Shown piece after piece: positions 535 to 55,218 of a stretch of DNA of 64,000 bases (position 1 is its first letter; each line of letters begins with the position of its first letter). The translations under genes were made by a program, and so were the position numbers. The notes under the pieces are model-generated. The model saw only the letters and a program-made list of their open reading frames with translations, made no database searches and was not told the origin of the DNA. Source of the DNA: Candidatus Omnitrophota bacterium (GTDB taxonomy: Bacteria; Omnitrophota; Gorgyraeia; Zapsychrales; Zapsychraceae); NCBI GenBank assembly GCA_050250375.1, contig JBFWOS010000003.1, positions 209,284 to 273,283 on the forward strand, in the 5' to 3' direction.

Positions 535-1003
535 TTTCTGGTCTCATAACCTGGATTGTTTCAAAGACGGACAAAGCCCCTTCTTTAATGACCTTCGCAT
601 AATAACCACAGCGCCCAAGAATATCATTCTTCAGTCGAGGATCAATGGAATCCAGAACATAACAAGGCTGTCTTACCTTGCTCAATTCGATCTCAACGCC
701 CCCGGAAAACCTCAAACGTGTTCCCGTCGGCAACTGATTAACATTAAGGTTACTCACAGTAAGATTCTCACCGGTGGCACCGGCATAAAGTTTATATCCT
801 GCGTTTCTCAAATCAACCAATTTCTCTATATCCTGAAGGGAAACTGCCTGGATCGGCCGGTAATGTTTTTCGTGGTTATGACCGTCTCCTTGCAGCCCCC
901 CTTCTTTAATTACGACAGATTCAATCGGATACTTAGGGATTCCTCCCCCGGAAACATTGATTGAGATCACCTGCGGCAAATATTTGTCGCTAAACTTTAT
1001 CAT
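518..1003 (-). CDS. MOSC-domain protein (YiiM/YcbX-like molybdenum-cofactor sulfurase C-terminal domain)
   Basis: 161 aa with a conserved MOSC cysteine context (RQPCYVLD), co-oriented and tightly packed with mobA and the nitrate reductase genes. Confidence 0.55.
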   Translation of the reverse strand: MIKFSDKYLPQVISINVSGGGIPKYPIESVVIKEGGLQGDGHNHEKHYRPIQAVSLQDIEKLVDLRNAGYKLYAGATGENLTVSNLNVNQLPTGTRLRFSGGVEIELSKVRQPCYVLDSIDPRLKNDILGRCGYYAKVIKEGALSVFETIQVMRPENEQVN

Positions 1004-1018
1004 TACACTTTACCCTGC

Positions 1019-2353: not shown

Positions 2354-2398
2354 TTTGTACCTTTCTATCCCTCCTTATTGTTGGTTGTTAGGATTAAT

Positions 2399-4612: not shown

Positions 4613-6276
4613 GAAAGCTGACCTCCGGGCATTTTCAAAGGAACCACCGCTTTAAAAAAAAGCAGCCGTTCAAACAGTTCAGCCCCTAAATTCAGACTGA
4701 AAATCAAAAATCCACCGGTTACGATCCACCCTGAAGAGATGTTGTCATTCAGGCTGAGAAAAAACAACGGCAGCAGGATCCCACCGGAAACGCCCAGGGC
4801 AAAACGCAAATATGTATAACCACGCAATTGCTGTATCATTAACAACGCGGTCTTTTTAATGAAAGTCAAATCACCCTTAGTCAGAGAAATAAAAACAACC
4901 GATTCAATCATAAGTTTTAATATCGTCATGACGAGAATGGCCAGACAAAATGTTTTCCCGAATGCGTCAACGATGATAAAGGTTGAAATCTTTTGAGATA
5001 CAAGAGAAACAAGAATCGCTGAAAAGAATATTGTTGAAAATCCCAGGATTCCCATCGTCATAAAAAACTTGGCGGTCGTATAGTTATTGTCCCAAAACGG
5101 CCGGCGGGTATCTTTATAAACCTTTACAGAACAATAAATCCCCAACATCCCAAAACCGGTAATAAAAAACGACAGCGCGTCAACAAATCCATCCCCTAAA
5201 ATTGAACCGATGACATTTGCGACCTTGGGAACCATCAGACAAACCGCGTACAAGACGGCTGATTTGGCAAATAGTCCGAAGGCCAGAATTTCCCGGCTCA
5301 GCCATGAAGTTTTTAGTCCCAAAATAGCCCGAAACGCATATTGCGGCCGTCCTAGATGCATAATGCTTGCTCCCAGCGCAAATAATCCGATGAATAAAGC
5401 AAAAAAAGTGTGATACTTATGCGTGAGCACATTGAGCGAAGGGTCTATGAATTTCGTTAATAAAATCTCGGCAAAGAAAGCTCCGACCGACAGTTGGGTC
5501 AAAACCAGCATAAAAACCAGAGGCAGGTGGGAATGCTCAGGCTTGATATGAAAATAATCATTCGAAACCATATTATCCGGAAAGCGCCTGTTTGTTTTAT
5601 ACCGGGTACTCGGATATGTATAATCGGATGCCGGTGCATCCGGAACTTTTACATAGTCTGAAGGATTTTTTTTAAGATCTTTCTTGTCAACAATGGTGAT
5701 CCTGATCGCACCGGTTGGACAAGCGCGGACACAGGCCGGAGCCTGACCGACATTCAACCGGCTGATACACATATCACATTTATGGACAATCCCTTTGCTC
5801 TTGTTGTATTTGGGCACTTCATACGGGCATTTTAATATGCAATACTGGCAGCCAAAACATTGGTCTTCCAGATGTTTGACTACCCCCGTCACGGTATCTT
5901 TTTCATACGCTTTCGTCGGACATCCATGCATACAAGCCGGTTCAGCGCAGTGATGACAGGCGGTCGTGATGTGCTGTATCGCGGGATTGGCACTTGTCCC
6001 TCCCTGAATCAGGCCGACAGACCGCCATGTTTCATCCGGGTCAAGTCCGTTTTCATTATGGCAAGCCGTCACACAGGCCTTGCAGCCCGTGCACTTATCC
6101 AAATCCACTTCAAAGGCATATTGCTGACCTTCCTGCGGCAGCTTTCCCGGCAAAAGTTCAGTATAATATTTCTCGCCTTTTTCAAATCCGTTTAAGTCGT
6201 GTTTGACCGAAAAATTCTCTACGGCGCTGAGTAAAGCCTGTCGGTCTAGGTATTGGTCGATTAATTTCTGGCTCAT
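4609..6276 (-). CDS. Fusion protein: N-terminal DmsB/NrfC/PsrB-like 4x[4Fe-4S] ferredoxin domain plus C-terminal DmsC/NrfD-like polytopic membrane anchor
   Basis: Four Cys clusters: [58 protein letters not shown]. About 8-9 hydrophobic helices follow, including the DmsC-type signature [24 protein letters not shown]. It lies immediately upstream of nasA. Confidence 0.6.
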
Positions 6277-6278
6277 GG

Positions 6279-6650
6279 TTAATTATTTAGAGTGCTGTGG
6301 ATATTTCCGTCGTGAATGTATAACGGGGTGTATTGGATTAACACATTCCCATGTTCAACCCAGGCGTTTAAAACTTTAAGATGCATAGGATTGTTATTCC
6401 CTTCTCCGGTAAACAGATCAAAACAAAACGATGTTTTTTTAGAAACCAATTCATCATCTTTGATGACACAATCGCTGACAAGTTCATCGGCCGCCAAAGA
6501 TTTGTTTTCATAACAATAAACTTTTTCCATCGGGCTTCTGAAGATGACAACCGGCTGCCCCTTAACTTGAAAAACGGTCCCTTCGTTGACGGGAATCTGA
6601 CTGAACTGACCGAGGTTGATTATAAGTGTTTTGACCATATGATCTCTCAA
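6279..6650 (-). CDS. NirD/Rieske-fold-like small protein lacking the Cys/His cluster ligands (degenerate NirD paralogue)
   Basis: 123 aa (TTG start in the track; an internal ATG at 6638 is more likely). The NirD-like beta-sandwich pattern is present (IPVNEGTVFQVKGQPVVIFR…) but there is no CxH…CxxH motif. It sits between the Fe-S/anchor gene and the ABC ATPase. Confidence 0.4.
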   Translation of the reverse strand: MRDHMVKTLIINLGQFSQIPVNEGTVFQVKGQPVVIFRSPMEKVYCYENKSLAADELVSDCVIKDDELVSKKTSFCFDLFTGEGNNNPMHLKVLNAWVEHGNVLIQYTPLYIHDGNIHSTLNN

Positions 6651-6652
6651 AC

Positions 6653-7561
6653 TTAAACGGCTAAAGTAAAATTTTTTTGTTGGGGTTCCATTCGTTCACG
6701 TGTCTTCTCCCTCTCCACGTCTTGAGACACCGGGTTGCTTTCAACTTCAAGATTGCTTTTATCATCATCCTTCTTTTCGTTTTCAATACCCTCTAAAAAG
6801 TTCATCAAATACCCCCGGTATTTGTAATAGTCCGGATGCTGGATGACTTCTTTTTTTATCCGTGGTCTCGGGAAATCAACTTTTAACACATCTCCGACCT
6901 TCGCATAGGGTCCGCTGGTCATCATAATGACCCGGTCGGATAACAGCAGGGATTCGTCGACATCGTGGGTAACGATAATCGCCGTGATTTTTTCCCTTGT
7001 CCATACTTCCAGTAAAACTTTCTGAAGTTCAGCTCGGGTTAACGAATCAAGCATGCCGAACGGTTCATCCAGCAGTAGCAATTTCGGTTTTAAAGCAAAT
7101 GCCCGGGCTATGCCGACACGCTGCTTCATCCCCGTTGATAGTTCGGCGGCCTTTTTATTAAAGCTGTCACCCAGCCCGACTTTATTCAAATAGTATTTGC
7201 ATATATCCATCTGCTGCGCTTTAGTGGCATGCCTGAAAACCTGCTGGACCCCTAAAAGGACATTTTCTAATGCGGTCATCCAGGGGAACAAACTGGGGGA
7301 TTGAAAAACGACGCCCCGGTCCGGACCGGCCGACGTAATCTCAATGCCCGCCAGAGAAATTACTCCGGATGAAATTTTATTTAATCCTGCGACCATGGAT
7401 AAGGCCGTTGACTTACCACACCCTGAGTGCCCGATAATGGACACAAATTCACCTTTGGCTATTTTAAGATTAAAGTTTTCCAGAACCACGTACGGCCCTT
7501 TCTGGCTTTGGTACACTTTTGAAATATTCTGAAAATGAAGATAATCGTCTTCTATGATCAC
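6653..7561 (-). CDS. nrtD: Nitrate/nitrite ABC transporter ATP-binding protein (NrtD position)
   Basis: 302 aa with Walker A GHSGCGKST, ABC signature LSTGMKQR and Walker B LLLDEP; NitT/TauT family. Confidence 0.8.
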   Translation of the reverse strand: MIIEDDYLHFQNISKVYQSQKGPYVVLENFNLKIAKGEFVSIIGHSGCGKSTALSMVAGLNKISSGVISLAGIEITSAGPDRGVVFQSPSLFPWMTALENVLLGVQQVFRHATKAQQMDICKYYLNKVGLGDSFNKKAAELSTGMKQRVGIARAFALKPKLLLLDEPFGMLDSLTRAELQKVLLEVWTREKITAIIVTHDVDESLLLSDRVIMMTSGPYAKVGDVLKVDFPRPRIKKEVIQHPDYYKYRGYLMNFLEGIENEKKDDDKSNLEVESNPVSQDVEREKTRERMEPQQKNFTLAV

Positions 7562-7575
7562 AACCCCTCCTAACT

Positions 7576-8457
7576 TTATTGTGCTTTATATGTATCGTAA
7601 TACAACAAACTCTTCGAGAGTCTTAAATCCAGCGGCTGAATGTCGGGTAATTCAAACTCTTCTTCAAGAACATTTACCCCGGAATCTTGTTTGATATCAA
7701 TCAAATATTTTGTAATGTCGTTTCTTAATTTCTTAAACCGTTCATGATGGTTCATTTCGGTTGCCCGTCGCGGCCTGGGGATATCAACGACGAAGGCAGG
7801 CCCAAGAGTGGCGTTCGGACCGGGATTCAGCGGAATGATCCGGTCGGCCAATAAAAGGCCTTCATCGACATCATTAGTGATTAATATGACCGTTCTTTTG
7901 TCCCGGCTCCAAATGTTCTCTATTTCTATCTGCAGAGTTCCCCGTGTTAACGCATCGAGCGCGCTCAACGGTTCATCCAGCAGAAGAATCTCCGGCTGCA
8001 TGGCCAGGGCCCTCGCCACCGAAACGCGCTGGCGCATCCCGCCTGACAATTCTCCCGGACGTTTGTCCATTGCCGGAGTCAGGTTGACCATTTCAATGTA
8101 TTTTCTGACATGCTCAGACCGGCGTTTTGAATCCCAATCAGGAAATACAGTATTAACACCGATCGCGACATTGCCTTCGACGGTTAACCAGGGCAGGAGA
8201 GAATAATTCTGAAAAACAATCCCTCGGTCAGGTCCTGGGCCTTCAATGGGTTTTCCTTTTAACAGCATCTCGCCGGAATCAGGCTTAAGCAGACCGGCCA
8301 GTAATGAAATAAGCGTAGTTTTACCGCTGCCGGAAAATCCGATAATCACAAGAAACTCCCCTTCCTGAACCTTAAGGTTTATCTTGTCGAGAACTTCCGT
8401 CCTGTTTTTTGAATCTCCGTATCCTTTGGAGATATTCTTTAATTCCAAAAAAGCCAT
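7576..8457 (-). CDS. nrtC: Nitrate/nitrite ABC transporter ATP-binding protein (NrtC position)
   Basis: 293 aa with Walker [10 protein letters not shown], signature LSGGMRQR and Walker B LLLDEP. Confidence 0.8.
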
Positions 8458-8467
8458 ACAAACTCCT

Positions 8468-9490
8468 TTATGCTGAAATGGGACCTTTTGAAAAACTGAC
8501 TGCCCTTTGGAACATGATCATAATCCGGTCAAGCATGAAGCCGATAATCCCGATAACAAAAACAGCCACCATGATCCTGGCTAACGAATGACTGCTCCCA
8601 TTTTGAAACTCGTCCCAGACAAACTTGCCTAATCCGGGATTTTGGGCGAGCATTTCCGCGGCAATCAAGACCATCCATCCCACCCCTAAAGAAATCCGCA
8701 AACCTGTAAAAATAAGAGGCAGCGACGCCGGCAGGACAATCTTGAATATCTTAGAAAATACTCCCAACTGCAGGACCCGGGCCACATTGATATAATCTTT
8801 ATCAATGGACGCCACGCCTAGCGCTGTGTTTAACAATGCCGGCCAAAGGGAACACAAAGAAACCGTAATCGCCGAATTGATAAATGATTTTTCGAACATC
8901 CCGTTTTTGGTCGTATACACCGCGCTGACGATCATGGTGACAATCGGCAGCCAGGCCAACGGTGAAACAGGTTTAAAGATCTGAATCAATGGATTTAAGG
9001 CCGTCATAAAAGTCCGGCTGATCCCGCACAAGATCCCGACCGGAACCGCAATAGCGGCAGCAATAATAAATCCGACAAAGACCGTTACTAAACTTGTACG
9101 GATTTGTTTGAGAAAAGTCGGCTTACCCGTGTACTTCCTCACTTTTATTTCGGCATCAGGATTTTTTTGCAATTTTTCAACATTACGTTTTTCCTGCTGC
9201 TGATAAAACTCCTTCTCCTTGAGTTTTTCCTGACTATGTTCCGCCATAAGCTGTTTTCCAGCTTCAAAAACCTGTATTGGCCCAGGGACTTCCCCCAGGC
9301 TGGTTTGGATACGTGAGGCCGATGCTCCCCACAATACCAAAAACACCATTATAGCCACGAGCGGAACACCGATCATCGCCCACATTTCTTTAAATTGTTC
9401 CTTAGGACTCTCCCCTGTTAACAAGCGGATTACTGGGATGGGCCATGTAAACCCGGCTAAGTCCAATGCGTTGATCACTTTATTCTTCAT
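8468..9490 (-). CDS. nrtB: Nitrate ABC transporter permease (NrtB-like)
   Basis: 340 aa polytopic membrane protein of the NitT/TauT permease family, sitting between the substrate-binding and ATPase genes. Confidence 0.8.
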
Positions 9491-9510
9491 GACGAATTAT
9501 TCTCCTTCGT

Positions 9511-10884
9511 TTAAATCTTGTCTTTATTGCCAATCGTGAATTTGTTGAGATATTCATTCGGCTTTTTACCGTCATAAATAATCCCGTCGATAAAATCTCC
9601 CGTGGCTTCTTTGAAGCCATCAGTCTGGGGAATATCTTCAGCGTTAATTTTTCCTTCCTTTAACAATTCAGCAGAGGCAGCCTGCCATACTTCCGGCATG
9701 TAAATACTCTTTGCTGTCTCCAGATACCAGGAATCCGTCTGCGCTTCAGTAATCTGTCCCCAACGTCTCATTTGAGTTAAGAACCAGACGGCATCGCTGT
9801 AGAAAGGATATGTCGCATGATAACGGTAGAATACGTTGAAATCCGGCATTGATCTTTTATCGCCCTTTTCAAATTCGAATGATCCGGTCATGCTGTTGGC
9901 GATGACTTCGTAATCTGCGCCGACATATTCAGGTTTAGACAATATCTTCGCAGCCTCCGCCCTATTTTTTCCATTATCTTCATCCAGCCATTGCCCTGCT
10001 CTGATCAGCGCTTTTACAACGGCGATATGAGTATTTGGATTCTTATCTGCCCATTCTTTTGTCACCCCAAACACTTTCTCAGGATTATTTTTCCAAATAT
10101 CGTAATTTGTTACGACCGGAACGCCAATACCTTTGAATACCGCCTGCTGGTTCCATGGCTCTCCGACGCAATACCCGTAAATGGTCCCAGCTTCCAACGT
10201 TGCGGGCATTTGCGGCGGCGGCGTCACGGATAAAAGCACATCTGCATTGGTCGTTCCCGTGATATCTTCTTTTGTATAAAATCCCGGTTTAATACCGGCG
10301 GCAGCCAGCCAATACCGGATTTCATAATTATGAGTCGAGACAGGAAAGACCATGCCCATTTTAAATTCTTTACCGGCGGCACGATATTTTTCAACAATTG
10401 GTTTAAGCGCATCCGCTTTGATCGGATGAACCGGTTTTCCATTTTCCATAGGGATGTGCTGTTTCATTTCGCTCCAGATATCATTGGAGACGGTGATTCC
10501 ATTTCCATTCAAATCCATACTGAACGCCGTTACAATATGGGCTTTGGTACCGAATCCGATGGTTGCGCCAATTGGCTGGCCGGCCAGCATATGTGCTCCG
10601 TCCAGCTCACCATCAATGACCCGGTCCAAGAGGACCTTCCAATTGGCCTGGGCTTCCAGCGTGACATAAAGGCCTTCATCATCAAAAAAACCCTTCTCCT
10701 TCGCAATAGCCAGCGGGGCCATATCCGTAAGTTTAATAAATCCGAACTTCAACTCATCCTTTTCAAGTTCTCCGTCGGCAAAGACCGGATGCACAATTAA
10801 CCCAGCCAGTAGGGCTCCCAAAATGACATTCTTGAAGGTAAGCTTTCTTAAAAAATCTATGTAATTTATTCTTTTCATATTCAC
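9511..10884 (-). CDS. nrtA: Nitrate ABC transporter substrate-binding protein (NrtA-like)
   Basis: 457 aa with a signal peptide. It resembles the NrtA/CmpA periplasmic-binding family (…[21 protein letters not shown]…) and is the first transporter gene after nirBD. Confidence 0.75.
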
Positions 10885-10901
10885 TCCGATCGGATTATTT
10901 T

Positions 10902-11045
10902 TTAGTTAAGAATTAGTTTAAAATTGCAATCTTTGTAATGGAACAATAGGTAATATAAAAAGTTCTCTTCCTGATCTAACGGACCTACCCCACGCTCAAG
11001 TTCAATTAATTTCTTAATTCGTGTTTTAGATGACATTGACTTCAT
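10902..11045 (-). CDS. Small ORF (47 aa) between nirD and nrtA. Hypothetical.
   Basis: My own translation: [47 protein letters not shown]. It is preceded by a strong SD (GAGGAGGT) 8 nt upstream of the ATG. It is below the track's 60-aa cutoff. Confidence 0.2.
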
Positions 11046-11069
11046 GGTTATACCTCCTCGCTGATTAGG

Positions 11070-11402
11070 CTAAATCATATTTAAATAAATCTCATCATTT
11101 TCAATCTTGACCGGGTATGTTCTCAAAGTCCAATCCTGGTTTCCTCCCAAATGTTTGCCGGTTTTCAGAGAAAACGAGTTTTTATGTAACGGACAGGCGA
11201 TCTTCGGTTCCCCCTGGTCTTCACCGGTTAACCCCCGGGATAAAACACTTTGTTTTTTATGCGGACAGGTGTTTTGAACGGCATACCATTCGTTCTGGCT
11301 TTCAAAATTAAAAATTGCGATTTGAAGCTCCCCGACCTTGACGCAACTTCCGCCGTTGCGAAGGACATCTTCTTTCTTACATACTTTCACCCATTCAGAC
11401 AT
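11070..11402 (-). CDS. nirD: Nitrite reductase [NAD(P)H] small subunit NirD (Rieske type)
   Basis: 110 aa with Rieske motifs CPHKKQ…CPLHK. Its start overlaps the nirB stop. Confidence 0.8.
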   Translation of the reverse strand: MSEWVKVCKKEDVLRNGGSCVKVGELQIAIFNFESQNEWYAVQNTCPHKKQSVLSRGLTGEDQGEPKIACPLHKNSFSLKTGKHLGGNQDWTLRTYPVKIENDEIYLNMI

Positions 11403-13936
11403 TATCCGTCTCCCATCATCGGCTTATGGTTTGAAACCTCTTCCAGAATAAGCGGTTTGATTTGACCACGTTCTTCGGTAAATTGTATGGTTGTATCTGT
11501 ATCAGGCGAATTGACAAAAGGCCGAAACCTTTTCAACTTTTCCGGATCATCTAACGCCTCCGACCATTCACATTTATAAGTATCCACCTGATATTGCATC
11601 TCCGCTTCCAATTCAGCACAAATTCCCAAACAGTCATCAATAATAATTTCTTTGAGCCGGTCAATCCCGCCTTCAAACTTATTTAACCATGTTGCCGTGC
11701 GAGTTAATCTATCTGCTGTCCGGATGTAATACATCAAGAATCGGTCAATATATTTGATCAATGTGGTCTCATCCAAGTCTTCAGCAAACAGTCTGGCGTG
11801 CTGGGGCTTCATTCCGCCGTTACCGCACAGATAAAGGTTATACCCTTTATCTGTGGCAATAACGCCGAAATCTTTGCTCTGCGCTTCAGCACATTCGCGG
11901 GAACAACCTGAAACGGCCGATTTAATTTTGTGCGGAGCCCTTAATCCTTTATACCGGTTTTCGATTCTGATCGCCAAACCGACGCTGTCCTGGACTCCGA
12001 ACCGGCACCAGGTTGACCCCACACAGGATTTTACTGTGCGCAAAGCCTTGGCATATGCATGGCCGCTTTCAAGCCCGACCTCTTGTAATTTCTTCCAAAT
12101 CTTTGGCAATTGTTCCAATTTAGCCCCGAACATGTCGATTCTCTGTCCACCCGTAATTTTGGTGTAAAGGTTAAACTCTTTGGCCACCGCCCCAATAGCC
12201 ATCAACTGGTCGGGAGTAATCTCTCCTCCGGGAATTCTTGGGATCACAGAATAAGATCCATTCTTCTGTATATTGGCCAAAAAATGATCGTTTGAATCCT
12301 GGATATCTTGATGCTTCAAAACAAATTCGTTTTGATAGCTGGCCAGGATGGAAGCAACGGCCGGTTTACAAATTTCACATCCCCGTCCTTTTCCATACCG
12401 CCCCAAGACCTCCCAATAACTCCTGATCTTTTCCGTACGGATGATTTCAGCCAATTCAATCCGGGAATAACTAAAACATCCGCACATGGATTTATTGACA
12501 GTTCCCCCGGATTTCTTGACTTCAAGATTAATAATATCGGTAATTAACGGAACACATCCCCCGCATCCGGTCCCGGCCTTGGTGCATTTCTTTATGTCGG
12601 CTACTGTTTTGGAACCATTTTTATACGCCTCAATAATCTGGCCTTTGGTGATATTTTCACATGAACAGATTCCTGCCGTGTCTGGAAAGGCCGCAACCCC
12701 GCTGTCTTCCGAGGAAGATTTCAGTTGGATCAATAAAGACTCCGGTGAATCGGGAACCTTAATCTGCGCCTGACAAATTTGTAATAACTTTCCGTATTCA
12801 GACGCATCCCCGATCAGAATCCCGCCAATGAGAGTTTTAGAATTTTTATCAATTAATAATCTTTTGTAAATACCCCCTAATCCGTTATGGATCATGACAT
12901 TCACAATGTCATTTCCTTCAGCAAACGGATTTCCGAAACTTCCGACATCAACCCCCATCAACTTAAGTTTTGTTGACATGTCCGCTCCGGTAAATTCATT
13001 CGTTTCACCGGTCAATTGACTGGCGACGACATCCGCCATTTTGTACCCCGGGGCAATAAGTCCATACACCATCCCTTCATAGACGGCGCATTCTCCGATC
13101 GCGTAGATATCCTCCGCTGAAGTTTTCAATTGTGAATCCACTAAGATCCCGCCCCGTTCCCCAACCTTAATTCCATTGGACTTGGCAATATCGTCTCTTG
13201 GACGAATCCCGGCCGAAACAACGATCATATCCACCTTCAACACTTGTCCGTCTGCAAAGACGATTCCATCCACACAATCATTACCGGAGACTTCTTTCGT
13301 CGTCTTGTTCAAATGAACTTCAATCCCTAATTTTTCAATCTGTCTTTGCAAAAATTCTGAACCGGTCTGATCAACCTGTCGGGGCATCAACCGGGGATTA
13401 AATTCGATCACGTTCGTATTTAACTTAAGATCCAGTAAGGCCTTGGCTGCCTCCAGCCCCAAAAGACCGCCACCGATCACAGCCGCGGATTTAACATTCT
13501 TGGCGTATTCAATGATGGCATCCAGGTCTTCAATCGTCCTATAGACGAATACGCCCTGCTTGTTTATCCCGGGGACAGGGGGGACAAACGGTGTTGAACC
13601 GGTGGCCAGAACCAGTTTGTCGTATTCAAGCTTCTTTCCTTTATCCGAGATGATAAATTTCTCAACCGGATTAATGGTTGTCACCTTCTCATTGACATAC
13701 AGATCCACTCCGTTTTCCTCATACCAGGAAAATGGCGCCATTGTCAGTTCTTCAAGAGTCTTACCGCTGAAATAGGCGGTTAAATTAACCCGATCATAAG
13801 CCGGACGGGGCTCTTCTCCAAAAACAGTAACCCGGTATTGGTTCAGTTTGTCTTTATTGATAAGCTTCTCACAAAACTTGTACCCGACCATGCCGTTACC
13901 AACGACAATTATTCTCTTTCGGATTTGGTTAATCAT
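11402..13936 (-). CDS. nirB: Nitrite reductase [NAD(P)H] large subunit NirB
   Basis: 844 aa with an N-terminal FAD/NAD Rossmann motif (IIVVGNGMVGYKF), sirohaem/4Fe-4S nitrite-sulfite reductase blocks, and a BFD-like 2Fe-2S insert. Confidence 0.9.
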   Translation of the reverse strand: MINQIRKRIIVVGNGMVGYKFCEKLINKDKLNQYRVTVFGEEPRPAYDRVNLTAYFSGKTLEELTMAPFSWYEENGVDLYVNEKVTTINPVEKFIISDKGKKLEYDKLVLATGSTPFVPPVPGINKQGVFVYRTIEDLDAIIEYAKNVKSAAVIGGGLLGLEAAKALLDLKLNTNVIEFNPRLMPRQVDQTGSEFLQRQIEKLGIEVHLNKTTKEVSGNDCVDGIVFADGQVLKVDMIVVSAGIRPRDDIAKSNGIKVGERGGILVDSQLKTSAEDIYAIGECAVYEGMVYGLIAPGYKMADVVASQLTGETNEFTGADMSTKLKLMGVDVGSFGNPFAEGNDIVNVMIHNGLGGIYKRLLIDKNSKTLIGGILIGDASEYGKLLQICQAQIKVPDSPESLLIQLKSSSEDSGVAAFPDTAGICSCENITKGQIIEAYKNGSKTVADIKKCTKAGTGCGGCVPLITDIINLEVKKSGGTVNKSMCGCFSYSRIELAEIIRTEKIRSYWEVLGRYGKGRGCEICKPAVASILASYQNEFVLKHQDIQDSNDHFLANIQKNGSYSVIPRIPGGEITPDQLMAIGAVAKEFNLYTKITGGQRIDMFGAKLEQLPKIWKKLQEVGLESGHAYAKALRTVKSCVGSTWCRFGVQDSVGLAIRIENRYKGLRAPHKIKSAVSGCSRECAEAQSKDFGVIATDKGYNLYLCGNGGMKPQHARLFAEDLDETTLIKYIDRFLMYYIRTADRLTRTATWLNKFEGGIDRLKEIIIDDCLGICAELEAEMQYQVDTYKCEWSEALDDPEKLKRFRPFVNSPDTDTTIQFTEERGQIKPLILEEVSNHKPMMGDG

Positions 13937-50168: not shown

Positions 50169-52259
50169 TTATAACTGTCCGGCAAGGAAATTGGCGATCT
50201 GATCTTTGAGGCTGCTCTTTAACGGTTCAGTCATCAGCAGTGATTTTTTGAAATCAGGTTCGAATAGTTCCGTCAGGGCCCGCTGGACCGTTTCAGGATC
50301 GGACGTGGCGATATTGAATTCCAGATTATCAATAAAACTCAGCTTGTCAAAATTAGCCGACCCGCTGCAGAACCAGCCGTCGTACACGGCGGCCTTGATA
50401 TGGCTCATCCCGGGATAAAAATAAACTTTGATCCCGTTATCAAACATCCAGTTGGCCGTGATGATATTGTTCATGTTCATGATCTCGTGATTGCCGTTGA
50501 CCGGAAGGATCACCCTGACATCCACCCCTCTTCGCCGGGCCTTGACCAGTTCGGTGATGATATTTCCGTCTGAAAAATAGGCGTTCGAGATATAAATATA
50601 TTTCTGCGCCCGCTGGATGGCGGCCAGCTGGGCTTTAAAAATCTGCGGGTCGTCGGGACGGGTGTATAAAGGACGGATGGGGATGCCTTTCATTTCCGTT
50701 TTCGGCTTGCGGTATTTGATCCGCTGGACCAGATACGAAATGTCCCCCAGCTTGTCCGCGTGCGCCCAGGCGATGTCAAACTCATGCAGGATTTCCTGGA
50801 CAATCGGCCCTCTCAATTCCATCATCAGGTCATGCCAGTCATAACGGTATTCCCGGCCGATATTCATGCCCCCGGTGTAACCCACCTCTTCATCAATCAC
50901 AATGGTTTTGGTGTGGTCCGCTTTCAGCCAGGCGTTAGGCCTCACCCGGACATCAATATCCGACCCTTTTGTTAAATATTTGACGATGGACGCCGGCGGT
51001 TTAAATCCCGACGGCAAACCGTCCGGGACAGTGCCCTGCCCCATAATCGTGCCGATGCCGTCCAGCAGGACACGCACGCTCATCTTCTTTTCATCGGATT
51101 TTAGTTTCAGGATATTGGCAATGTCCACGGCATAATCATCATTGTCAAAAATAAACGTGCGCACATCAATCGAATTCTGCGCGGAGCGCATTGATTTCTC
51201 CAGGGCCGTAAAAAACGCCTCCCCGCCGATCAAAAACCCGATGGTCCCGCTGGATCTGTTCTTCCCGACGATACCATCCAAAATTTTTTCAAATTCCTCC
51301 AGGTCCATTCCCGGCCCTTCTTTTAAAGGGGGAACAGGTTCCGAAGGAAAAACGGGCGGCACCCACCTTTGCGGCTTGAGCGAATGGACCGCCGAACCTT
51401 TCGCCCAGGAATACAGACGGAAGGCCGACGAAAACGGCCGGGTCGCTACTCCGATGAGCTGTCCGTCCAGAATAATTTGGTCCGCCGATTTCAGGCTGCC
51501 GGACAACGGTATCAAATAACCCGATTTTTCCGAATGAATAATCTTAAGACTCACCGCCATCGCGTTTGGAATGTCGATATACAAAAAGGTCTGCTGGTCA
51601 TCGAAGGAAGACTGCACACTCAGAAGAACCCTTTGTGCGTTCATCCCGTTTGTATTCAGAAATTTCTTCAGCGTACTGATAATCAAATGGGTGAATTGGG
51701 TCTGGTTATACGATTTTTGAATGGAGACCTGGAGCGGTTTATCTTTATATTCAATAATCCGGATGTCGCCCTGGGCGTCGTGGTAATAGACCAGTTCAAG
51801 AAAATCATACCGGACCAGCGACCCTGCGTTCGTTTTCTCCGGTGCGATGGCTTTGCTTAACTGCGCCTGGAATGCCTCCCACTGGTCCTCGGCCAAAACG
51901 GCCACTGCGGACATTTCAGACGATTTGTCCTCCCAGCGCTCTTCGCCGATAAAATCGAGGTTCAGGACAATATTTTTGTCGAGGCTGATCTTGCGCACGG
52001 CATCCTTGCCCCATTTCGCCCGGGCAAAAAAATCCCGGCTCTGGTCGCTATCCTTCAAAAAAGCCCTGAACCGAACATAGATCTGGTCGTCGTCACTGCG
52101 GGCTTCAAGGACTTCAAGTTTGGCGGACTGGTTGACCCAGACATAGGCGGTATCGGTGAGGGCATTCCCGCGGAACTGCCCGGAGGCCGCGCATCCGCCG
52201 GCCAATACCGAGAGGAATAAAATATTCAAAAAATGATAAATTAGTTTCTTTAAGGGCAT
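50169..52259 (-). CDS. Phospholipase D / cardiolipin-synthase-family lipoprotein with two HKD motifs and a large unknown N-terminal domain
   Basis: HKD motifs ADHTKTIVID…GGMNIG and SHIKAAVYD…GSANFD. I prefer the start at Met 52259 (MPLKKLIYHFLNILFLSVLAGGCAAS lipobox), which avoids overlap with ppa. The track ORF extends to 52310. Confidence 0.65.
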   Translation of the reverse strand: MPLKKLIYHFLNILFLSVLAGGCAASGQFRGNALTDTAYVWVNQSAKLEVLEARSDDDQIYVRFRAFLKDSDQSRDFFARAKWGKDAVRKISLDKNIVLNLDFIGEERWEDKSSEMSAVAVLAEDQWEAFQAQLSKAIAPEKTNAGSLVRYDFLELVYYHDAQGDIRIIEYKDKPLQVSIQKSYNQTQFTHLIISTLKKFLNTNGMNAQRVLLSVQSSFDDQQTFLYIDIPNAMAVSLKIIHSEKSGYLIPLSGSLKSADQIILDGQLIGVATRPFSSAFRLYSWAKGSAVHSLKPQRWVPPVFPSEPVPPLKEGPGMDLEEFEKILDGIVGKNRSSGTIGFLIGGEAFFTALEKSMRSAQNSIDVRTFIFDNDDYAVDIANILKLKSDEKKMSVRVLLDGIGTIMGQGTVPDGLPSGFKPPASIVKYLTKGSDIDVRVRPNAWLKADHTKTIVIDEEVGYTGGMNIGREYRYDWHDLMMELRGPIVQEILHEFDIAWAHADKLGDISYLVQRIKYRKPKTEMKGIPIRPLYTRPDDPQIFKAQLAAIQRAQKYIYISNAYFSDGNIITELVKARRRGVDVRVILPVNGNHEIMNMNNIITANWMFDNGIKVYFYPGMSHIKAAVYDGWFCSGSANFDKLSFIDNLEFNIATSDPETVQRALTELFEPDFKKSLLMTEPLKSSLKDQIANFLAGQL

Positions 52260-52266
52260 GTGTGCT

Positions 52267-52770
52267 TCAGGATTTATGAGAATCCTTGTACCGCTGAAGG
52301 GCTTCTTCAATCGTTACATACGCCGCTTTTTTATCGGCCCACCCTTCAACACTTACCTTTTTATATTCCAGATCCTTGTAAACATTAAAGAAATGTTCAA
52401 TTTCTTTGAGCAAATGCGGCTGGACTTCTTCAATATGATGGATATGGTTCCACAACGGATCACTGACGGGGATACAGAGTATTTTCTCATCAGGCCCTTT
52501 TTCATCGGTCATTTTAAACAAGCCGATCGGACGGGCTTCGATAATACATCCGGGAAAAGTCGATTCAGTGACCAGGACCAGCGCGTCCAGCGGGTCGCCG
52601 TCCAGGGCTAATGTGTCGGGGAAAAAACCATAATCACTTGGATAATGCACAGCGGAAAAAAGCATCCGGTCAAACTTGATGACCTTCCGGACTTTATCGT
52701 ATTCATATTTGTTGCGGCTGCCCTTGGGAATTTCTACGGTAACCCAAAAAGTTTTTTGATCAGATATCAT
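52267..52770 (-). CDS. ppa: Inorganic pyrophosphatase
   Basis: 167 aa family I PPase (…EIPKGSRNKYEYD… DGDPLDALV…). Confidence 0.9.
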   Translation of the reverse strand: MISDQKTFWVTVEIPKGSRNKYEYDKVRKVIKFDRMLFSAVHYPSDYGFFPDTLALDGDPLDALVLVTESTFPGCIIEARPIGLFKMTDEKGPDEKILCIPVSDPLWNHIHHIEEVQPHLLKEIEHFFNVYKDLEYKKVSVEGWADKKAAYVTIEEALQRYKDSHKS

Positions 52771-52810
52771 ATTTTGTTCCTTAATTTTCTAAGTAGTATA
52801 ACAAATTAAA

Positions 52811-52870
52811 AAGGGATCGGCCTTTTCTTTCTCAGTTTTTTGAGAGAAAAAGCCGACCCCTTTTTATTCA
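52811..52870 (-). terminator. Long imperfect hairpin with flanking A and T runs, between the nuclease gene 3' region and ppa
   Basis: GGGATCGGCC-TTTTCTTTCTCAG-TTTTTT-GAGAGAAAAAG-CCGACCCC followed by TTTTTATT. The outer stem pairs 8 of 9 positions plus an inner stem. Confidence 0.4.
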
Positions 52871-53051
52871 AGTATTGCTGTAAATTCAAATGCTGAGTCG
52901 ACCAACTTGAAATTTCTAACCCTGAAACCGGTGACGCAATCAGGCCTAAATCTTTCGTGAGTAATACGTCAATTATGCAATATATTTTGGAATCGTCAAG
53001 ACGACAGAACGGGTTGGACTAGGACAGGGTAGGACAAAACGAACAGACGGG

Positions 53052-54080
53052 TTACACCCTGCGGGCGTGGCCTTCTTCGAGAAGCAGATTATTCAAATAC
53101 ACGTCACTCGCCGGGGCAGGTGCTTCCCCTTGCGGGATAAAGACATCCGCGAGGTACCGGGCATATTTATCGGGGCGGCTGGAGCGCATCACGATCAGCG
53201 CTGACTCCTTTAACAGCGACTGCACAAACACCTTGGCCGCGTCTCCCTCTTTGGTGCCGAGTTCCGGCGCGTCGATATCCCGCAGGCGCAGGGTTTCGGT
53301 GTGCTCAAGACGGAACCCCAGATCAACGCGGACCTTGAGCGTGTCAGCGTCCACCACCCGTTCAATCACCGCCGCGTACGTGAACAGGTCTTTGGTCCCG
53401 CGCTCACTGCGTTTGAGCGAATAGCGGTCGGTCGCGGGATCAAAAGCGCTTTCAACAATCTCATCCGCCTCGAATTTCGCTACAGCGCGCGCCGAAAGCC
53501 GTTTGTACACGCTGAAACCCAGATCCAGCAGCCACACTCGCTCATCTTTGCCCGCGCCCAGCTGCGGCCGATGCACCAGCCGGTACGTGTACAATTGACC
53601 GCGCGCGGATGTCAGCAATGTTTGTGACGGAGGAGTTTCCTTTTCAACAGGAGCACCATTAAATTTCCGTGTTTTAACACGTGTCTCCAGTTCCTCGGCA
53701 GACCAGCCGTTGCGTCCCGCCTTTTCCTCGATCAACAATCGTTCCTGATCATCGGCAATGGTGATCAGCTTACGGTAATGACTCCAGGTGAATTGGTGCC
53801 GGCCGGCACCAATTGGCAGGCGGGGATATTTCTCAGCGAACCTGACACAACGATTTAACACCGTCCGGTCAACATTCAGGTCTTTCGCCAGGCGCAGGAC
53901 CACTTCAGCGCCGTATTCAGCACGGTCGGCATGTTTTAAAACATGCGCGTGGATTAACCGCCCGGTTTCCCAGTAAACCTTCACCTTCTCCGCCTCAATC
54001 CTCTGCTGGCCGAGGATCAGCGTCTGTTTGACCTTTTGAAAGAGAGTTTTGTAGGTGGAAGGTAAGTTTGTTTTCGGCAT
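53052..54080 (-). CDS. Fusion protein: DUF1016_N (YhcG N-terminal-like) domain plus C-terminal staphylococcal-nuclease (SNase/thermonuclease) domain
   Basis: 342 aa with N-terminal …VYWETGRLIHAHVL…AEYGAEVVLRLAKDL…FTWSHYRKL… typical of DUF1016_N. The C-terminus has VVDADTLKVRV…LRLRDIDAPE…DKYARYLADV (SNase D-D-T / R-L-x-x-I-D-A-P-E / D-K-Y-G-R-like). Local GC is roughly 58%, against about 45% in the flanks. Confidence 0.6.
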   Translation of the reverse strand: MPKTNLPSTYKTLFQKVKQTLILGQQRIEAEKVKVYWETGRLIHAHVLKHADRAEYGAEVVLRLAKDLNVDRTVLNRCVRFAEKYPRLPIGAGRHQFTWSHYRKLITIADDQERLLIEEKAGRNGWSAEELETRVKTRKFNGAPVEKETPPSQTLLTSARGQLYTYRLVHRPQLGAGKDERVWLLDLGFSVYKRLSARAVAKFEADEIVESAFDPATDRYSLKRSERGTKDLFTYAAVIERVVDADTLKVRVDLGFRLEHTETLRLRDIDAPELGTKEGDAAKVFVQSLLKESALIVMRSSRPDKYARYLADVFIPQGEAPAPASDVYLNNLLLEEGHARRV

Positions 54081-54154
54081 GACTGACCTTTATTAATTAG
54101 GGTTAAGGTATATTCCTATTTTTACTTGGTCGTTCTTTCCCATGGGGGCCATCC

Positions 54155-54466
54155 TTAAGGAAGAAAGAATAAGTTTGTTGTCACCCAGTTGAGTTTGTTT
54201 GTCCACCCGCGGATTTGTCTCCCGGACGGGTCAAACAAATCTCCCACGTAATCGCCTTTTTTGATCCGTTCACTGCGTGGCTCATCGATGTGTTCGATGG
54301 TTTGAAAAGGCAGGACGAGGTTGCAGACTTCCTGTGTTTTCCCGTTCCACACCAGCTCCACTTCCCGGTCGTCGTCAAACAAAAGGAACCGGTATTTCTC
54401 AGGCAGGGGTTTACCTTCCTGGATTAATTTGATCGCGTCTCTTTTTTCGTTATCCGATAATTTCAT
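54155..54466 (-). pseudogene. N-terminal remnant (~100 aa) of an adenine-specific DNA methyltransferase (COG2189 / Type III Mod or Type IIG-like). Truncated at the start of the catalytic domain.
   Basis: MKLSDNEKRDAIKLIQEGKPLPEKYRFLLFDDDREVELVWNGKTQEVCNLVLPFQTIEHIDEPR matches the characteristic N-terminus of this MTase family. The ORF ends at …WTNKLNWVTTNLFFLP*, where the W-x-N-K/R-L-I-x-G-D-N motif of the MTase domain should begin. No continuation is seen in any frame. Confidence 0.5.
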
Positions 54467-54640
54467 AAGAAAAAAGGTCAGACCCCTTTTACGGCTGACC
54501 CGCGCTGAATGGGTTTAAAGCTTAAAGTTTAACGGTTAAGGTTACGGGTGATTCTTAAGGTAATTTGTTATACCACAAAATACTTCGGGTTGAAACCGGC
54601 ATTTTTCCAACTTTCTCCTGAATGGCGGCCTTTGGCAGGC

Positions 54641-54688
54641 TCAATAAAAAAGGGCCTTGATAAACGGTTTTCCGTCGATAAGGCCCTT
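54641..54688 (-). terminator. Rho-independent terminator downstream of the DUF2934 gene (minus-strand sense)
   Basis: AAGGGCCTT…(21-nt loop with inner pairing)…AAGGCCCTT, a perfect 9-bp inverted repeat. The plus-strand A-run AATAAAAAA gives a U-run after the hairpin on the minus strand. Confidence 0.55.
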
Positions 54689-54708
54689 AATTACTTATTT
54701 GTGATTTC

Positions 54709-55218
54709 TTATTTGCCTTCAAGTTTGATTAATTCTGTAGCGATATGCCAGTCATATTCGTTGGTGCCCTGGACGTATCCCTTTTGTTCGTACAATTCAT
54801 ACGCTTTTTGAGCGATCAGCTGCTGGGTTTCTTCATCTTCCAGGTCGAGATCAAACCGTTTTCTTGAACTTGACTGTTCTTTTTCAAGTTCCAGCCGGAC
54901 CAGTTTGTCCGCCAGTTCCCAGTCATATTTATCCAGACCGTGGTTATAACCCCGAAGCTGAAACAATTCGTAGGCCTTTTCGGCGATCCGTTGCTGCAGG
55001 GTGTCGGATGAATCGGCAGTGTTGAAGGTATCCACGATATCCGCTTCATTGGTCATTTCTGTTTTCGGCCGTTCAGGAGCAGGAGCGGCGGCAGCCGTTC
55101 TGGGCGCGGCAGCTCTTCTGGGGGAAGCAACCCGTGTCGTTTCCTTCTGAGGAAGCAGAGATTTAGCCCTCCTCAGTTTATTTCTGGTCGTATTCGAATC
55201 TTTTAGAGACATGATCAA
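54709..55218 (-). CDS. DUF2934-repeat protein with Ala/Pro/Arg-rich N-terminus
   Basis: Two copies of the ~45-aa motif IAxKAYELxxxxGYxxGxxxYDWxxAxxLxxLE. The N-terminus is low-complexity (RRAAAPRTAAAAPAPERP). Confidence 0.45.
   Translation of the reverse strand: MIMSLKDSNTTRNKLRRAKSLLPQKETTRVASPRRAAAPRTAAAAPAPERPKTEMTNEADIVDTFNTADSSDTLQQRIAEKAYELFQLRGYNHGLDKYDWELADKLVRLELEKEQSSSRKRFDLDLEDEETQQLIAQKAYELYEQKGYVQGTNEYDWHIATELIKLEGK

What the first reader, a model, noticed from the sequence alone, without database searches (positions are those of the whole stretch)
53052..54080. Horizontally acquired gene encoding a novel DUF1016_N - staphylococcal nuclease domain fusion
DUF1016_N normally sits in front of a PD-(D/E)xK restriction-endonuclease-like domain (YhcG family). 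Here it is fused to an SNase/thermonuclease domain with intact catalytic-site motifs (D-D-T, RLxxIDAPE, DKYxR). The gene is markedly GC-richer than its neighbours and is bracketed by a long hairpin terminator (52811-52870) and a methyltransferase remnant. This architecture and context are typical of mobile defence or toxin nucleases. I am not aware of this domain swap having been described.
Basis: partly seen in the sequence, partly recalled or inferred. Interest (0 to 1): 0.7.

Follow-up and report, generated by a model that had tools for sequence, protein, structure and literature searches.

The report
DNA-binding domain fused to staphylococcal-type nuclease
This is an intact gene for a cytoplasmic nuclease that joins a DNA-binding domain, normally attached to a different nuclease, to a staphylococcal-type nuclease; it belongs to a large, unstudied family that sits in variable "defence island" regions, so the fusion is real but common rather than unique.

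Summary
The ORF at 53052-54080 (minus strand, 342 aa) is real. Both domain calls pass Pfam's cut-offs: DUF1016_N at 68 bits and SNase at 29 bits. Every SNase catalytic and Ca2+-binding residue is conserved across the family. Structure prediction gives three domains: a ParB/KorB-like helical DNA-binding domain, a small OB-like beta-barrel, and a short SNase domain without the last helix.

The fusion is not unique. About 950 protein clusters (50% identity) and at least 326 genomic loci carry it. Most are in Omnitrophota and Verrucomicrobiota, often with several copies per genome. Divergent copies occur on Leptospira plasmids. Databases give these proteins only generic names, and I found no paper describing the architecture.

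The gene is stand-alone, with no conserved neighbour, and is under purifying selection (dN/dS about 0.2). It sits in a hypervariable hotspot between a DUF2934 gene and ppa, next to a recently frameshifted and truncated Type III Mod gene. The nearest relative genome lacks it at this site.

Its high GC is a family-wide trait. Synonymous divergence equals that of the flanking genes, so recent acquisition is not shown. The "terminator" hairpin belongs to a conserved backbone unit.

Most likely function: a DNA-targeted nuclease used against mobile elements. This is unproven.

The parts
53052..54080 (-). Intact gene for the 342-aa DUF1016_N / beta-barrel / SNase nuclease (stop codon at 53052-53054)
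   Evidence: ORF. Pfam domains above cut-off. Identical protein in NCBI, P0001. dN/dS 0.17-0.23 against three homologues. No signal peptide or TM segment.
53655..54059 (-). N-terminal all-helical domain (aa 8-142), DUF1016_N, with a ParB/Spo0J/KorB-like DNA-binding fold
53385..53600 (-). Middle domain (aa 161-232): small five-stranded beta-barrel, tentatively OB-like, with no sequence-family match
53055..53384 (-). C-terminal SNase (thermonuclease) domain (aa 233-342). The active site is complete. The domain ends after helix 2 and lacks SNase Y113/Y115 and helix 3.
54098..54466 (-). Pseudogene remnant of a Type III-like Mod DNA methyltransferase. It covers roughly the first 125 codons, has a 1-nt deletion at about 54186/54187, and is truncated near motif DPPF about 15 nt upstream of the nuclease ATG.
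   Evidence: tblastn to annotated methyltransferases. 84% nt and 97% aa identity to the start of the intact 753-aa Mod of L002. Alignment showing the frameshift and the +1-frame continuation LGDNKLILSSL...KIGIYLNPN.
53038..54643 (.). Window-specific cargo segment of the hotspot (upstream region + Mod remnant + nuclease gene). The nearest relative L166 has 3.2 kb of four unrelated ORFs at this position.
   Evidence: blastn breakpoints: window 60648-54644 = L166 7-6007 (87.9%) and window 53037-45690 = L166 9223-16584 (90.7%). The right breakpoint is shared with L002, L171 and L170. Gene maps.
52771..53037 (-). Conserved non-coding backbone unit that bounds the hotspot. It holds TGTCC repeats, a promoter-like site (52999-52972), about 110 nt of spacer, and the 25-bp hairpin (52807-52866) followed by a T-run. 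It is not part of the nuclease gene or its island.
   Evidence: Promoter-like TTGACG-16-CATAAT. Hairpin. Present at 74-91% nt in L166, L002, L171 and L170, with long invariant blocks. RNA fold z -6.5. No Rfam family above threshold.
54645..54693 (-). Terminator-like hairpin after the DUF2934 gene. It marks the left edge of the variable segment.
   Evidence: Inverted repeat I6. Similarity to L166 ends at 54644.

Best explanation
The gene encodes a stand-alone cytoplasmic nuclease with three domains.

Shown:
- An N-terminal helical domain (DUF1016_N) with the fold of ParB/KorB DNA-binding domains.
- A small beta-barrel in the middle.
- A short SNase domain with a complete Ca2+-binding and catalytic residue set.
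- The gene is intact, under purifying selection, has no conserved partner gene, and belongs to a large family whose members are scattered through variable, mostly defence/R-M/TA-type neighbourhoods, often in several diverged copies per genome.
- In this window it is the only intact survivor of a decayed Type III R-M island at a chromosomal hotspot.

Inferred:
- The N-terminal domain, possibly helped by the barrel, binds nucleic acid and positions or licenses the SNase domain, which cuts it in a Ca2+-dependent reaction.
- The biological role is conflict with mobile DNA (phage or plasmid restriction, or abortive infection). This would make it an effector-swapped counterpart of the DUF1016/YhcG PD-(D/E)xK proteins, which are PADLOC candidate PDC-S02.
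- Because it persists after its neighbouring methyltransferase was inactivated, it does not depend on that methylation to spare the host genome.
- How self-DNA is spared is unknown. Possibilities are low cytoplasmic Ca2+, target specificity of the N-domain, or autoinhibition.

The confidence given is for the whole statement including the inferred role. The architecture and family membership alone I hold at about 0.95.
For: Architecture and active site.

Domain swap shown by partial against full matches on plasmids. PADLOC PDC-S02 models hit the N-domain, and an SNc-containing defence model hits aa 220-318.

Family size and spread. Several copies per genome.

No conserved neighbour: the largest neighbour cluster occurs in 6 of about 80 loci at variable offsets. 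135 Pfam families were found among 150 neighbours.

Island-type contexts:
- Type III R-M + AlbA_2 + SHOCT.
- DndB-like, Dam, ORC-CDC6-like, Bro-N, KilA-N.
- SIR2_2.
- Fic, Gp49, S24, RAMA.
- DpnII R-M, SNF2, NOV_C.
- Cas3, ResIII, HNH, Methylase_S, MTaX1 among neighbours.

Hotspot with five different contents in closely related genomes.

Purifying selection. Cytoplasmic location.

Literature: canonical DUF1016 proteins are predicted nucleases enriched beside R-M systems and on mobile elements (PMC1189080, PMC9881135, PMC4316617). Thermonuclease-like genes occur sporadically in Pgl/BREX operons (PMC3710099).
Against: - No member of this family, or of the DUF1016 family, has a demonstrated function.
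- One PDC-S02 representative gave no protection against T4, T5 or T7 in E. coli B (bioRxiv 10.1101/2024.09.26.614923).
- Defence-island association is qualitative only. It rests on 7 annotated contexts plus a top-25 family list, with no background-corrected statistic. One context (L178) is purely housekeeping, and housekeeping genes (PdxA, RF-1, sulfatases) are also among the neighbours.
- The SNase domain lacks helix 3 and Y113/Y115. Such a truncation destabilises S. aureus SNase (my own knowledge), so activity is not guaranteed, although short natural homologues exist.
Confidence: 0.55

Rival explanations
1. It is cargo that serves mobile elements rather than the host. Examples would be a nuclease that helps an island or plasmid spread or persist (addiction, exclusion of competing elements, processing of DNA ends), carried passively in this genome.
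For: The family is on Leptospira plasmids next to an RHS toxin, an Rpn nuclease/transposase and IS elements. Neighbours include Bro-N, KilA-N, ORF6N, Gp49 and integrase/transposase genes. The gene is patchily present among close relatives. A closer homologue (77% aa, dS 0.65) lies in a different island of an apparently more distant genome.
Against: No recombinase, terminal repeats or conserved flanks travel with the gene. The 16-nt inverted repeat straddles the core/island boundary. No full-length homologue was found in 50,697 phage records. The gene survives here after the rest of its island decayed, and it is under purifying selection.
Confidence: 0.2
2. It is a DNA repair, recombination or nucleoid-processing nuclease of the host (a housekeeping role). 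The ParB-like domain would target it to chromosomal DNA structures.
For: The ParB/KorB-like fold of the N-domain. One context lies among housekeeping genes. Synonymous divergence is compatible with long residence at this locus.
Against: The gene is absent from the nearest relative and from two other close relatives at the same site. Copy number varies from one to three or more diverged copies per genome. There is no conserved neighbourhood. dN/dS is two to four times that of the flanking housekeeping genes. The phyletic distribution is restricted.
Confidence: 0.1
3. It is the toxin of a toxin-antitoxin or similar two-part system.
For: A cytoplasmic non-specific nuclease would be toxic. Some relatives sit next to TA genes (Gp49/HTH, Fic). 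A 150-aa ORF overlaps the start of the gene in L178.
Against: No neighbour family recurs. The best occurs in 6 of about 80 loci at offsets from -5 to +4. In the window the gene is flanked only by a pseudogene and a non-coding unit.
Confidence: 0.07
4. It is a secreted or nutritional nuclease like classical thermonucleases (Nuc, YncB), as some database names suggest.
For: SNase domain. JGI names relatives 'endonuclease YncB (thermonuclease family)'.
Against: No signal peptide or hydrophobic segment: max Kyte-Doolittle(19) 0.98, and 0.36 in the first 35 aa. The N-terminus is a folded helical DNA-binding-like domain.
Confidence: 0.03

Closest known systems
DUF1016 / YhcG family (COG4804; Pfam PF17761 + PF06250; PADLOC candidate PDC-S02)
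   Same: Homologous N-terminal domain: Pfam 68 bits, PADLOC E 1e-23, and 25-30% identity over aa ~7-160 to plasmid 'PDDEXK nuclease domain-containing proteins'. Similar overall size (330-375 aa). Single-gene units found beside R-M systems and on mobile elements. No proven function.
   Different: The C-terminal PD-(D/E)xK nuclease domain is absent. A small beta-barrel plus an SNase domain takes its place, giving a different fold, a different catalytic mechanism and a Ca2+ requirement instead of Mg2+.
Staphylococcal nuclease / thermonuclease family (PF00565; S. aureus Nuc, E. coli plasmid thermonucleases, short phage nucleases such as Arthrobacter phage Altadena gp58)
   Different: No signal peptide. 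Preceded by about 230 aa of extra domains. Ends after helix 2, so Y113, Y115 and helix 3 of S. aureus SNase are missing, as in the 116-aa phage homologue. T41 is replaced by Ala or Cys; that residue binds Ca2+ through its backbone.
ParB/Spo0J/KorB DNA-binding (HTH) domains
   Different: The score is below Pfam's cut-off. There is no ParB N-terminal CTPase/ParB-box domain and no dimerisation domain. The gene is not in a partition operon. This is a resemblance, not membership.
Eukaryotic Tudor-SN (SND1) and extended Tudor domains
   Different: In eTudor the barrel is inserted within a catalytically dead SN fold and reads methyl-arginine. Here the barrel precedes a complete, apparently active SNase domain and resembles OB rather than Tudor barrels, though weakly. 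No evolutionary link is implied.
Restriction-linked accessory genes (for example DUF1016, RhuM, Fic, AlbA_2 genes embedded in Type I/III R-M loci)
   Same: In the syntenic relative L002 the gene follows Mod - AlbA_2/HATPase - Res - SHOCT. In L179 it lies between R-M genes.
   Different: Linkage to R-M is not constant. In the window the R-M system is dead while the nuclease remains intact.

Membership tests
SNase / thermonuclease superfamily (PF00565) | Sequence match to the family model above the curated cut-off | tested here: met
   29.3 bits against cut-off 21, aa 263-340. Precomputed PF00565 on most of the 120 listed relatives.
SNase / thermonuclease superfamily (PF00565) | OB-fold barrel with helices, superposable on SNase | tested here: met
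SNase / thermonuclease superfamily (PF00565) | Ca2+ ligands (D21, D40, T41 backbone) and catalytic R35, E43, R87 | tested here: met
   D246, D270, R265, E273 and R308 are present and invariant or in at least 90% of 49 members. The T41 position is Ala/Cys.
SNase / thermonuclease superfamily (PF00565) | C-terminal helix 3 and substrate-binding Y113/Y115 of the S. aureus enzyme | tested here: not met
   All members stop after the helix-2 region, and the Pfam match covers profile positions 1-75 of 107. The same holds for a 116-aa phage nuclease, so this is a feature of the type enzyme rather than of the whole superfamily.
SNase / thermonuclease superfamily (PF00565) | Ca2+-dependent hydrolysis of DNA/RNA giving 3'-phosphates | not testable with these tools
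   Needs biochemistry.
DUF1016 / YhcG family (COG4804) | DUF1016_N N-terminal domain | tested here: met
   68.1 bits against cut-off 32.8. PDC-S02 models match at E down to 1.5e-23.
DUF1016 / YhcG family (COG4804) | C-terminal PD-(D/E)xK nuclease domain (PF06250; E-D-E(I/L/V)K motif, PMC1189080) | tested here: not met
   No PF06250 hit at E<=1. Canonical members align only to aa ~7-160. The C-terminal half is an SNase fold. The protein is therefore not a full member, only a relative that shares the N-domain.
Anti-phage defence system (PADLOC PDC-S02 candidate) | Full-length match to a system model | tested here: not met
   Matches are restricted to the N-terminal 140-150 aa of models up to 357 positions long.
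Anti-phage defence system (PADLOC PDC-S02 candidate) | Experimentally shown protection | not testable with these tools
   The only test found, of one canonical PDC-S02 representative, was negative for T4, T5 and T7.
ParB/KorB family | HTH DNA-binding domain together with the ParB N-terminal (CTP-binding) domain, in a partition or regulatory operon | tested here: not met
   Only fold similarity of the HTH region. HTH_ParB scores 17.1 bits, below the 22.6 cut-off. There is no ParBc hit and no par genes nearby.
Toxin-antitoxin system | Conserved adjacent partner gene | tested here: not met
   All-against-all clustering of 598 neighbour proteins found no family in more than 6 of about 80 loci, and none at a fixed offset.
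Type III restriction-modification system (the locus as a whole) | Intact Mod and Res genes | tested here: not met
   Mod is frameshifted and cut at about codon 125, and Res is absent. The intact arrangement is seen in L002.
Recently horizontally acquired gene | Absent from the same site in close relatives | tested here: met
   Absent in L166 (flanks 88-91% nt identical), L170 and L171. Present in L002.
Recently horizontally acquired gene | Composition or divergence discordant with the flanks in a way specific to this locus | tested here: inconclusive
   GC is +10 points, but this excess is family-wide in AT-rich hosts (60 of 70 loci). dS to the syntenic L002 copy is 1.65 against 1.3-1.6 for the flanks, near saturation. 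The closest homologue (dS 0.65) lies in another island of a genome that could not be placed reliably.

The most novel reading that the evidence does not exclude
DUF1016_N would be a portable DNA-recognition or sensing module that evolution has wired to interchangeable nuclease effectors: PD-(D/E)xK in YhcG-type proteins, and OB-like barrel + SNase here. The SNase version would be a Ca2+-gated cytoplasmic suicide or restriction nuclease. It would stay silent at the sub-micromolar free Ca2+ of a healthy cell and switch on when infection or envelope damage lets Ca2+ in. That would be a trigger logic not yet described for bacterial immunity.
Probability: 0.1. Interest if true: 0.7.

Novelty: new variant of a known kind. 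Interest (0 to 1): 0.38.

Why it matters
If the inferred role holds, this family shows that the uncharacterised DUF1016 N-terminal domain is the constant, probably DNA-recognising, part of a modular nuclease, and that the cutting domain can be exchanged. That gives a handle on the whole DUF1016/YhcG group, which is abundant next to R-M systems and on plasmids but has no known function.

It would also add a cytoplasmic SNase-type, presumably Ca2+-dependent, enzyme to the list of conflict nucleases. That raises the question of how such an enzyme is kept from destroying its own genome.

The family is large in Omnitrophota and Verrucomicrobiota, groups with few characterised defence genes.

At the level of this window the result is more modest. 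The gene is an ordinary member of that family, sitting in a decaying island at a chromosomal hotspot.

Tried and rejected
1. **16-nt inverted repeat as element termini.** The repeat (52793-52808 / 54561-54576, 15 of 16 matching) is rejected as the ends of a mobile element. One arm lies in the backbone segment conserved in all relatives and the other lies inside the variable segment.

2. **Allele replacement inferred from protein identity.** The nuclease is 61% identical to L002's copy while the flanks are 80-87%. I withdrew this inference after the codon analysis: dS is the same as for the flanks, and only dN is higher.

3. **ppa-anchored metagenome scan.** This aimed to find empty or alternative versions of the site. 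It returned 80 loci at 65-75% ppa identity, none syntenic, so it was of no use. The PLD-anchored route succeeded instead.

4. **Placing the genome that holds the 77% homologue (GCA_050181705.1).** P0127 belonged to another assembly. The GH57 search and cluster listing did not show the genome in the 93% or 79% clusters. This suggests it is more distant, but the result is inconclusive.

5. **Conserved partner gene, antitoxin or operon.** None found.

6. **Rfam match for the hairpin unit.** Only sub-threshold generic hairpin matches. No tRNA lies nearby.

8. **N-domain against PDB sequences.** Nothing significant.

9. **Full-length homologues in phage genomes.** None. Only SNase-only or N-domain-only matches were found.

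10. **NCBIfam.** No specific family; only weak partial hits to EcnA and NucI models, far below their cut-offs. A literature search for EcnA returned only unrelated papers.
Full report

Yes. A 342-codon ORF occupies 53052-54080 on the minus strand. Pfam finds DUF1016_N at residues 25-140 (68.1 bits, cut-off 32.8). It finds SNase at residues 263-340 (29.3 bits, cut-off 21), and that match covers only profile positions 1-75 of 107.

- D244, D246, T247 correspond to SNase D19, D21, T22.
- R265, D270, E273 correspond to R35, D40, E43.
- D304, K305, Y306, R308 correspond to D83, K84, Y85, R87.

The gene is the GC-richest in the window: 56.0% against a mean of 45.1% (sd 3.2) for 60 gene proxies. The hairpin exists, with 25-nt arms at 52807-52866. 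The upstream 103-aa ORF is the N-terminus of a DNA methyltransferase.

**2. Anatomy of the protein**

An AlphaFold model built on 49 family members has mean pLDDT 86.8 and shows three domains.

- **Residues 143-160** are a poorly conserved, low-confidence linker.

All family members end just after the second helix. They therefore lack Y113, Y115 and helix 3 of the S. aureus enzyme. That short form also occurs in nature as a 116-aa phage nuclease that aligns to residues 232-339.

There is no signal peptide or membrane segment. Unlike classical thermonucleases, the protein should be cytoplasmic.

**3. Is the fusion new?**

It is a genuine domain swap. On plasmids, canonical "PDDEXK nuclease domain-containing proteins" (the YhcG type) match only residues ~7-160. 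"Thermonuclease family proteins" match only ~233-339. PADLOC's PDC-S02 models likewise stop at about residue 147.

It is not rare, however:
- The identical protein is already in NCBI, from a Candidatus Omnitrophota MAG with an 872-kb contig.
- 273 word-sharing homologues were found. Nearly all of the 120 listed carry both Pfam domains.
- A profile search of 1.84 billion cluster representatives gave 956 hits at E<=1e-30. The best 150 are mostly full length.
These come from Omnitrophota (many labelled "uncultured Planctomycetales"), Opitutaceae and other Verrucomicrobiota, Elusimicrobiota and others.
- Many MAGs have two or three diverged copies.

Twenty-four Leptospira plasmids carry a distant full-length relative: BLASTP E 2e-26, with DUF1016_N above the cut-off and SNase below it. 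In that relative the D40 equivalent is Trp and the K84 equivalent is Val, so its active site is degenerate.

Sources name these proteins generically. NCBIfam has no specific model. None of the 13 papers containing "DUF1016", and no paper combining DUF1016/YhcG with SNase terms, describes the architecture.

**4. The locus**

Comparison with relatives found through the neighbouring PLD gene shows that the stretch between the DUF2934 gene and ppa is a hotspot:

| Genome | Content of the site |
|---|---|
| Window | Mod remnant + nuclease |
| L166 (nearest relative; PLD 95%, flanks 88-91% nt) | Four unrelated ORFs |
| L002 (PLD 80%) | DUF4145 - Mod - AlbA_2/HATPase - ResIII - SHOCT - nuclease - the same four ORFs |
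| L171 | IS30-type transposase |
| L170 | Almost nothing, not even ppa |

All of these genomes fall in one >=90% cluster for the backbone GH57 enzyme.

The window-specific segment is 54643-53038, 1,606 bp. The Mod remnant is 84% nt and 97% aa identical to L002's Mod. It carries a 1-nt deletion at the WGDN motif, can be followed in the +1 frame to about the DPPF motif, and is joined about 15 nt upstream of the nuclease ATG. Its very low dN (0.022) means it was inactivated recently. The window therefore holds a decayed Type III R-M island whose only intact gene is the nuclease.

**5. Was it horizontally acquired?**

Only partly supported.

For:
- The gene is island cargo and is missing from three of four close relatives.
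- The family shows scattered contexts, multiple copies and plasmid carriage.
- The closest homologue (77% aa, dS 0.65) lies in an unrelated island of a genome that does not appear among the window's close relatives.

Against recent acquisition here:
- The GC excess is a property of the family in AT-rich hosts. It is seen in 60 of 70 loci, with a mean of +4 points and a maximum of +16.
- dS between the window and the syntenic L002 copy (1.65) equals that of the flanking genes (1.29-1.57). dS is near saturation, so allele replacement cannot be excluded.
- The lower protein identity comes from a two- to four-fold higher dN/dS: 0.19 against 0.05-0.08 for the flanks.

**6. The hairpin**

The hairpin is not the gene's own terminator and does not bracket the island. 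It lies in a 266-nt non-coding segment (53037-52771) that is present in all four relatives. The segment has long invariant blocks and is better conserved than the neighbouring coding DNA. It contains a conserved promoter-like TTGACG-16-CATAAT site, followed about 110 nt later by the hairpin and a T-run.

The segment persists where ppa is missing (L170) and where an IS separates it from ppa (L171). It looks like a small backbone transcription unit, either a candidate small RNA or a leader. Every genome's cargo ends immediately upstream of it. Read-through from the nuclease gene would still stop there.

**7. What does the protein do?**

No neighbour is conserved. The largest neighbour cluster occurs in 6 of about 80 loci at variable offsets, and 135 Pfam families were found among 150 neighbours. 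So it acts alone, which argues against a toxin-antitoxin pair.

Six of seven annotated contexts contain R-M, TA, defence or phage-type genes (and the window itself). One is purely housekeeping.

The gene is under purifying selection, and its catalytic residues are invariant.

Canonical DUF1016 proteins are predicted nucleases with an uncharacterised helical N-domain (PMC1189080). They are enriched 17-fold next to programmed-inversion targets and occur between R-M core genes (PMC9881135). They are also found on conjugative elements (PMC4316617). Thermonuclease-like genes have been noted in Pgl/BREX operons (PMC3710099).

I therefore favour a DNA-directed nuclease used in conflicts with mobile DNA, in which the ParB-like domain (perhaps with the barrel) selects the substrate and the SNase domain cuts it.

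The steps shown are the architecture, the conserved active site, the stand-alone nature, the island context and purifying selection. The steps inferred are DNA binding, Ca2+ dependence, the defence role and any control mechanism.

Because the gene outlived its neighbouring methyltransferase, it cannot depend on that methylation to spare the host genome.

The main counter-evidence is the absence of any functional data, together with one negative test of a canonical PDC-S02 gene against T4, T5 and T7.

**8. Verdict**

The protein is a new variant of a known kind: the DUF1016/YhcG nuclease family with its effector domain exchanged. It is a typical member of a large but unstudied family and is not a one-off. 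Interest is moderate.

Noticed in passing
window 52771-53037 (minus strand): A 266-nt non-coding segment is conserved better than the adjacent coding DNA in four related genomes. It contains TGTCC repeats, a conserved promoter-like TTGACG-16-CATAAT site, then about 110 nt later a 25-bp hairpin with a T-run. It persists where ppa is absent (L170) and where an IS separates it from ppa (L171). It is a candidate ~165-nt small RNA or leader. There is no Rfam match, and the RNA fold z-score is -6.5.
   Followed up: partly
window 53038-54643; L166 6008-9222; L002 ~465-12355; L171 2294-3400; L170 9687-9743: The site between the DUF2934 gene's terminator and the conserved small unit is an integration/deletion hotspot. 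It has five different contents in five closely related Omnitrophota genomes, all within one >=90% GH57 cluster.
   Followed up: yes
L166 6025-9221; L002 9044-12352: A cassette of four ORFs with no Pfam hits (about 247, 280-286, 248 and 280 aa) occupies the hotspot in two relatives. It is an internal tandem duplication of a two-gene unit: L166 6054-7599 matches both L002 9073-10618 and L002 10787-12333. Its function is unknown, and it is absent from the window.
   Followed up: no
L172 6890-7888; L173 6890-7882 (Leptospira weilii and L. interrogans plasmids): Cultured pathogenic Leptospira carry distant full-length relatives on plasmids, next to an RHS toxin gene or an Rpn nuclease/transposase. 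Their SNase site is degenerate (D40 equivalent is Trp, K84 equivalent is Val), so they may be inactive or use different chemistry.
   Followed up: partly
L002 1-7963: The intact version of the island is DUF4145 (a HEPN-type domain according to PMC3710099) - Mod (753 aa) - AlbA_2/HATPase_c_4 (Schlafen-like) - ResIII (893 aa) - SHOCT. This is a Type III R-M system with an accessory gene inserted between mod and res.
   Followed up: no
70 family loci (L001-L085) and the window: Family genes are GC-richer than their flanks in 60 of 70 loci. The excess is up to +16 points in AT-rich Omnitrophota and about zero in GC-rich Opitutaceae. It may reflect protein composition, frequent transfer from GC-richer donors, or both.
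   Followed up: partly
window 50169-52310 (minus strand): The mechanical ORF for the PLD/cardiolipin-synthase-like gene starts at a TTG that overlaps ppa and gives 713 aa. Database homologues, including the window genome's own entry, are 696 aa, so the true start is probably 17 codons downstream. This gene's GC3 (0.637) is as high as the nuclease's.
   Followed up: no
window 54709-55218 (minus strand): The gene to the left of the hotspot encodes a 169-aa protein with two DUF2934 repeats and a low-complexity Ala/Pro/Arg-rich N-terminus. It is conserved next to the GH57 branching-enzyme/glycogen gene cluster in all relatives.
   Followed up: no
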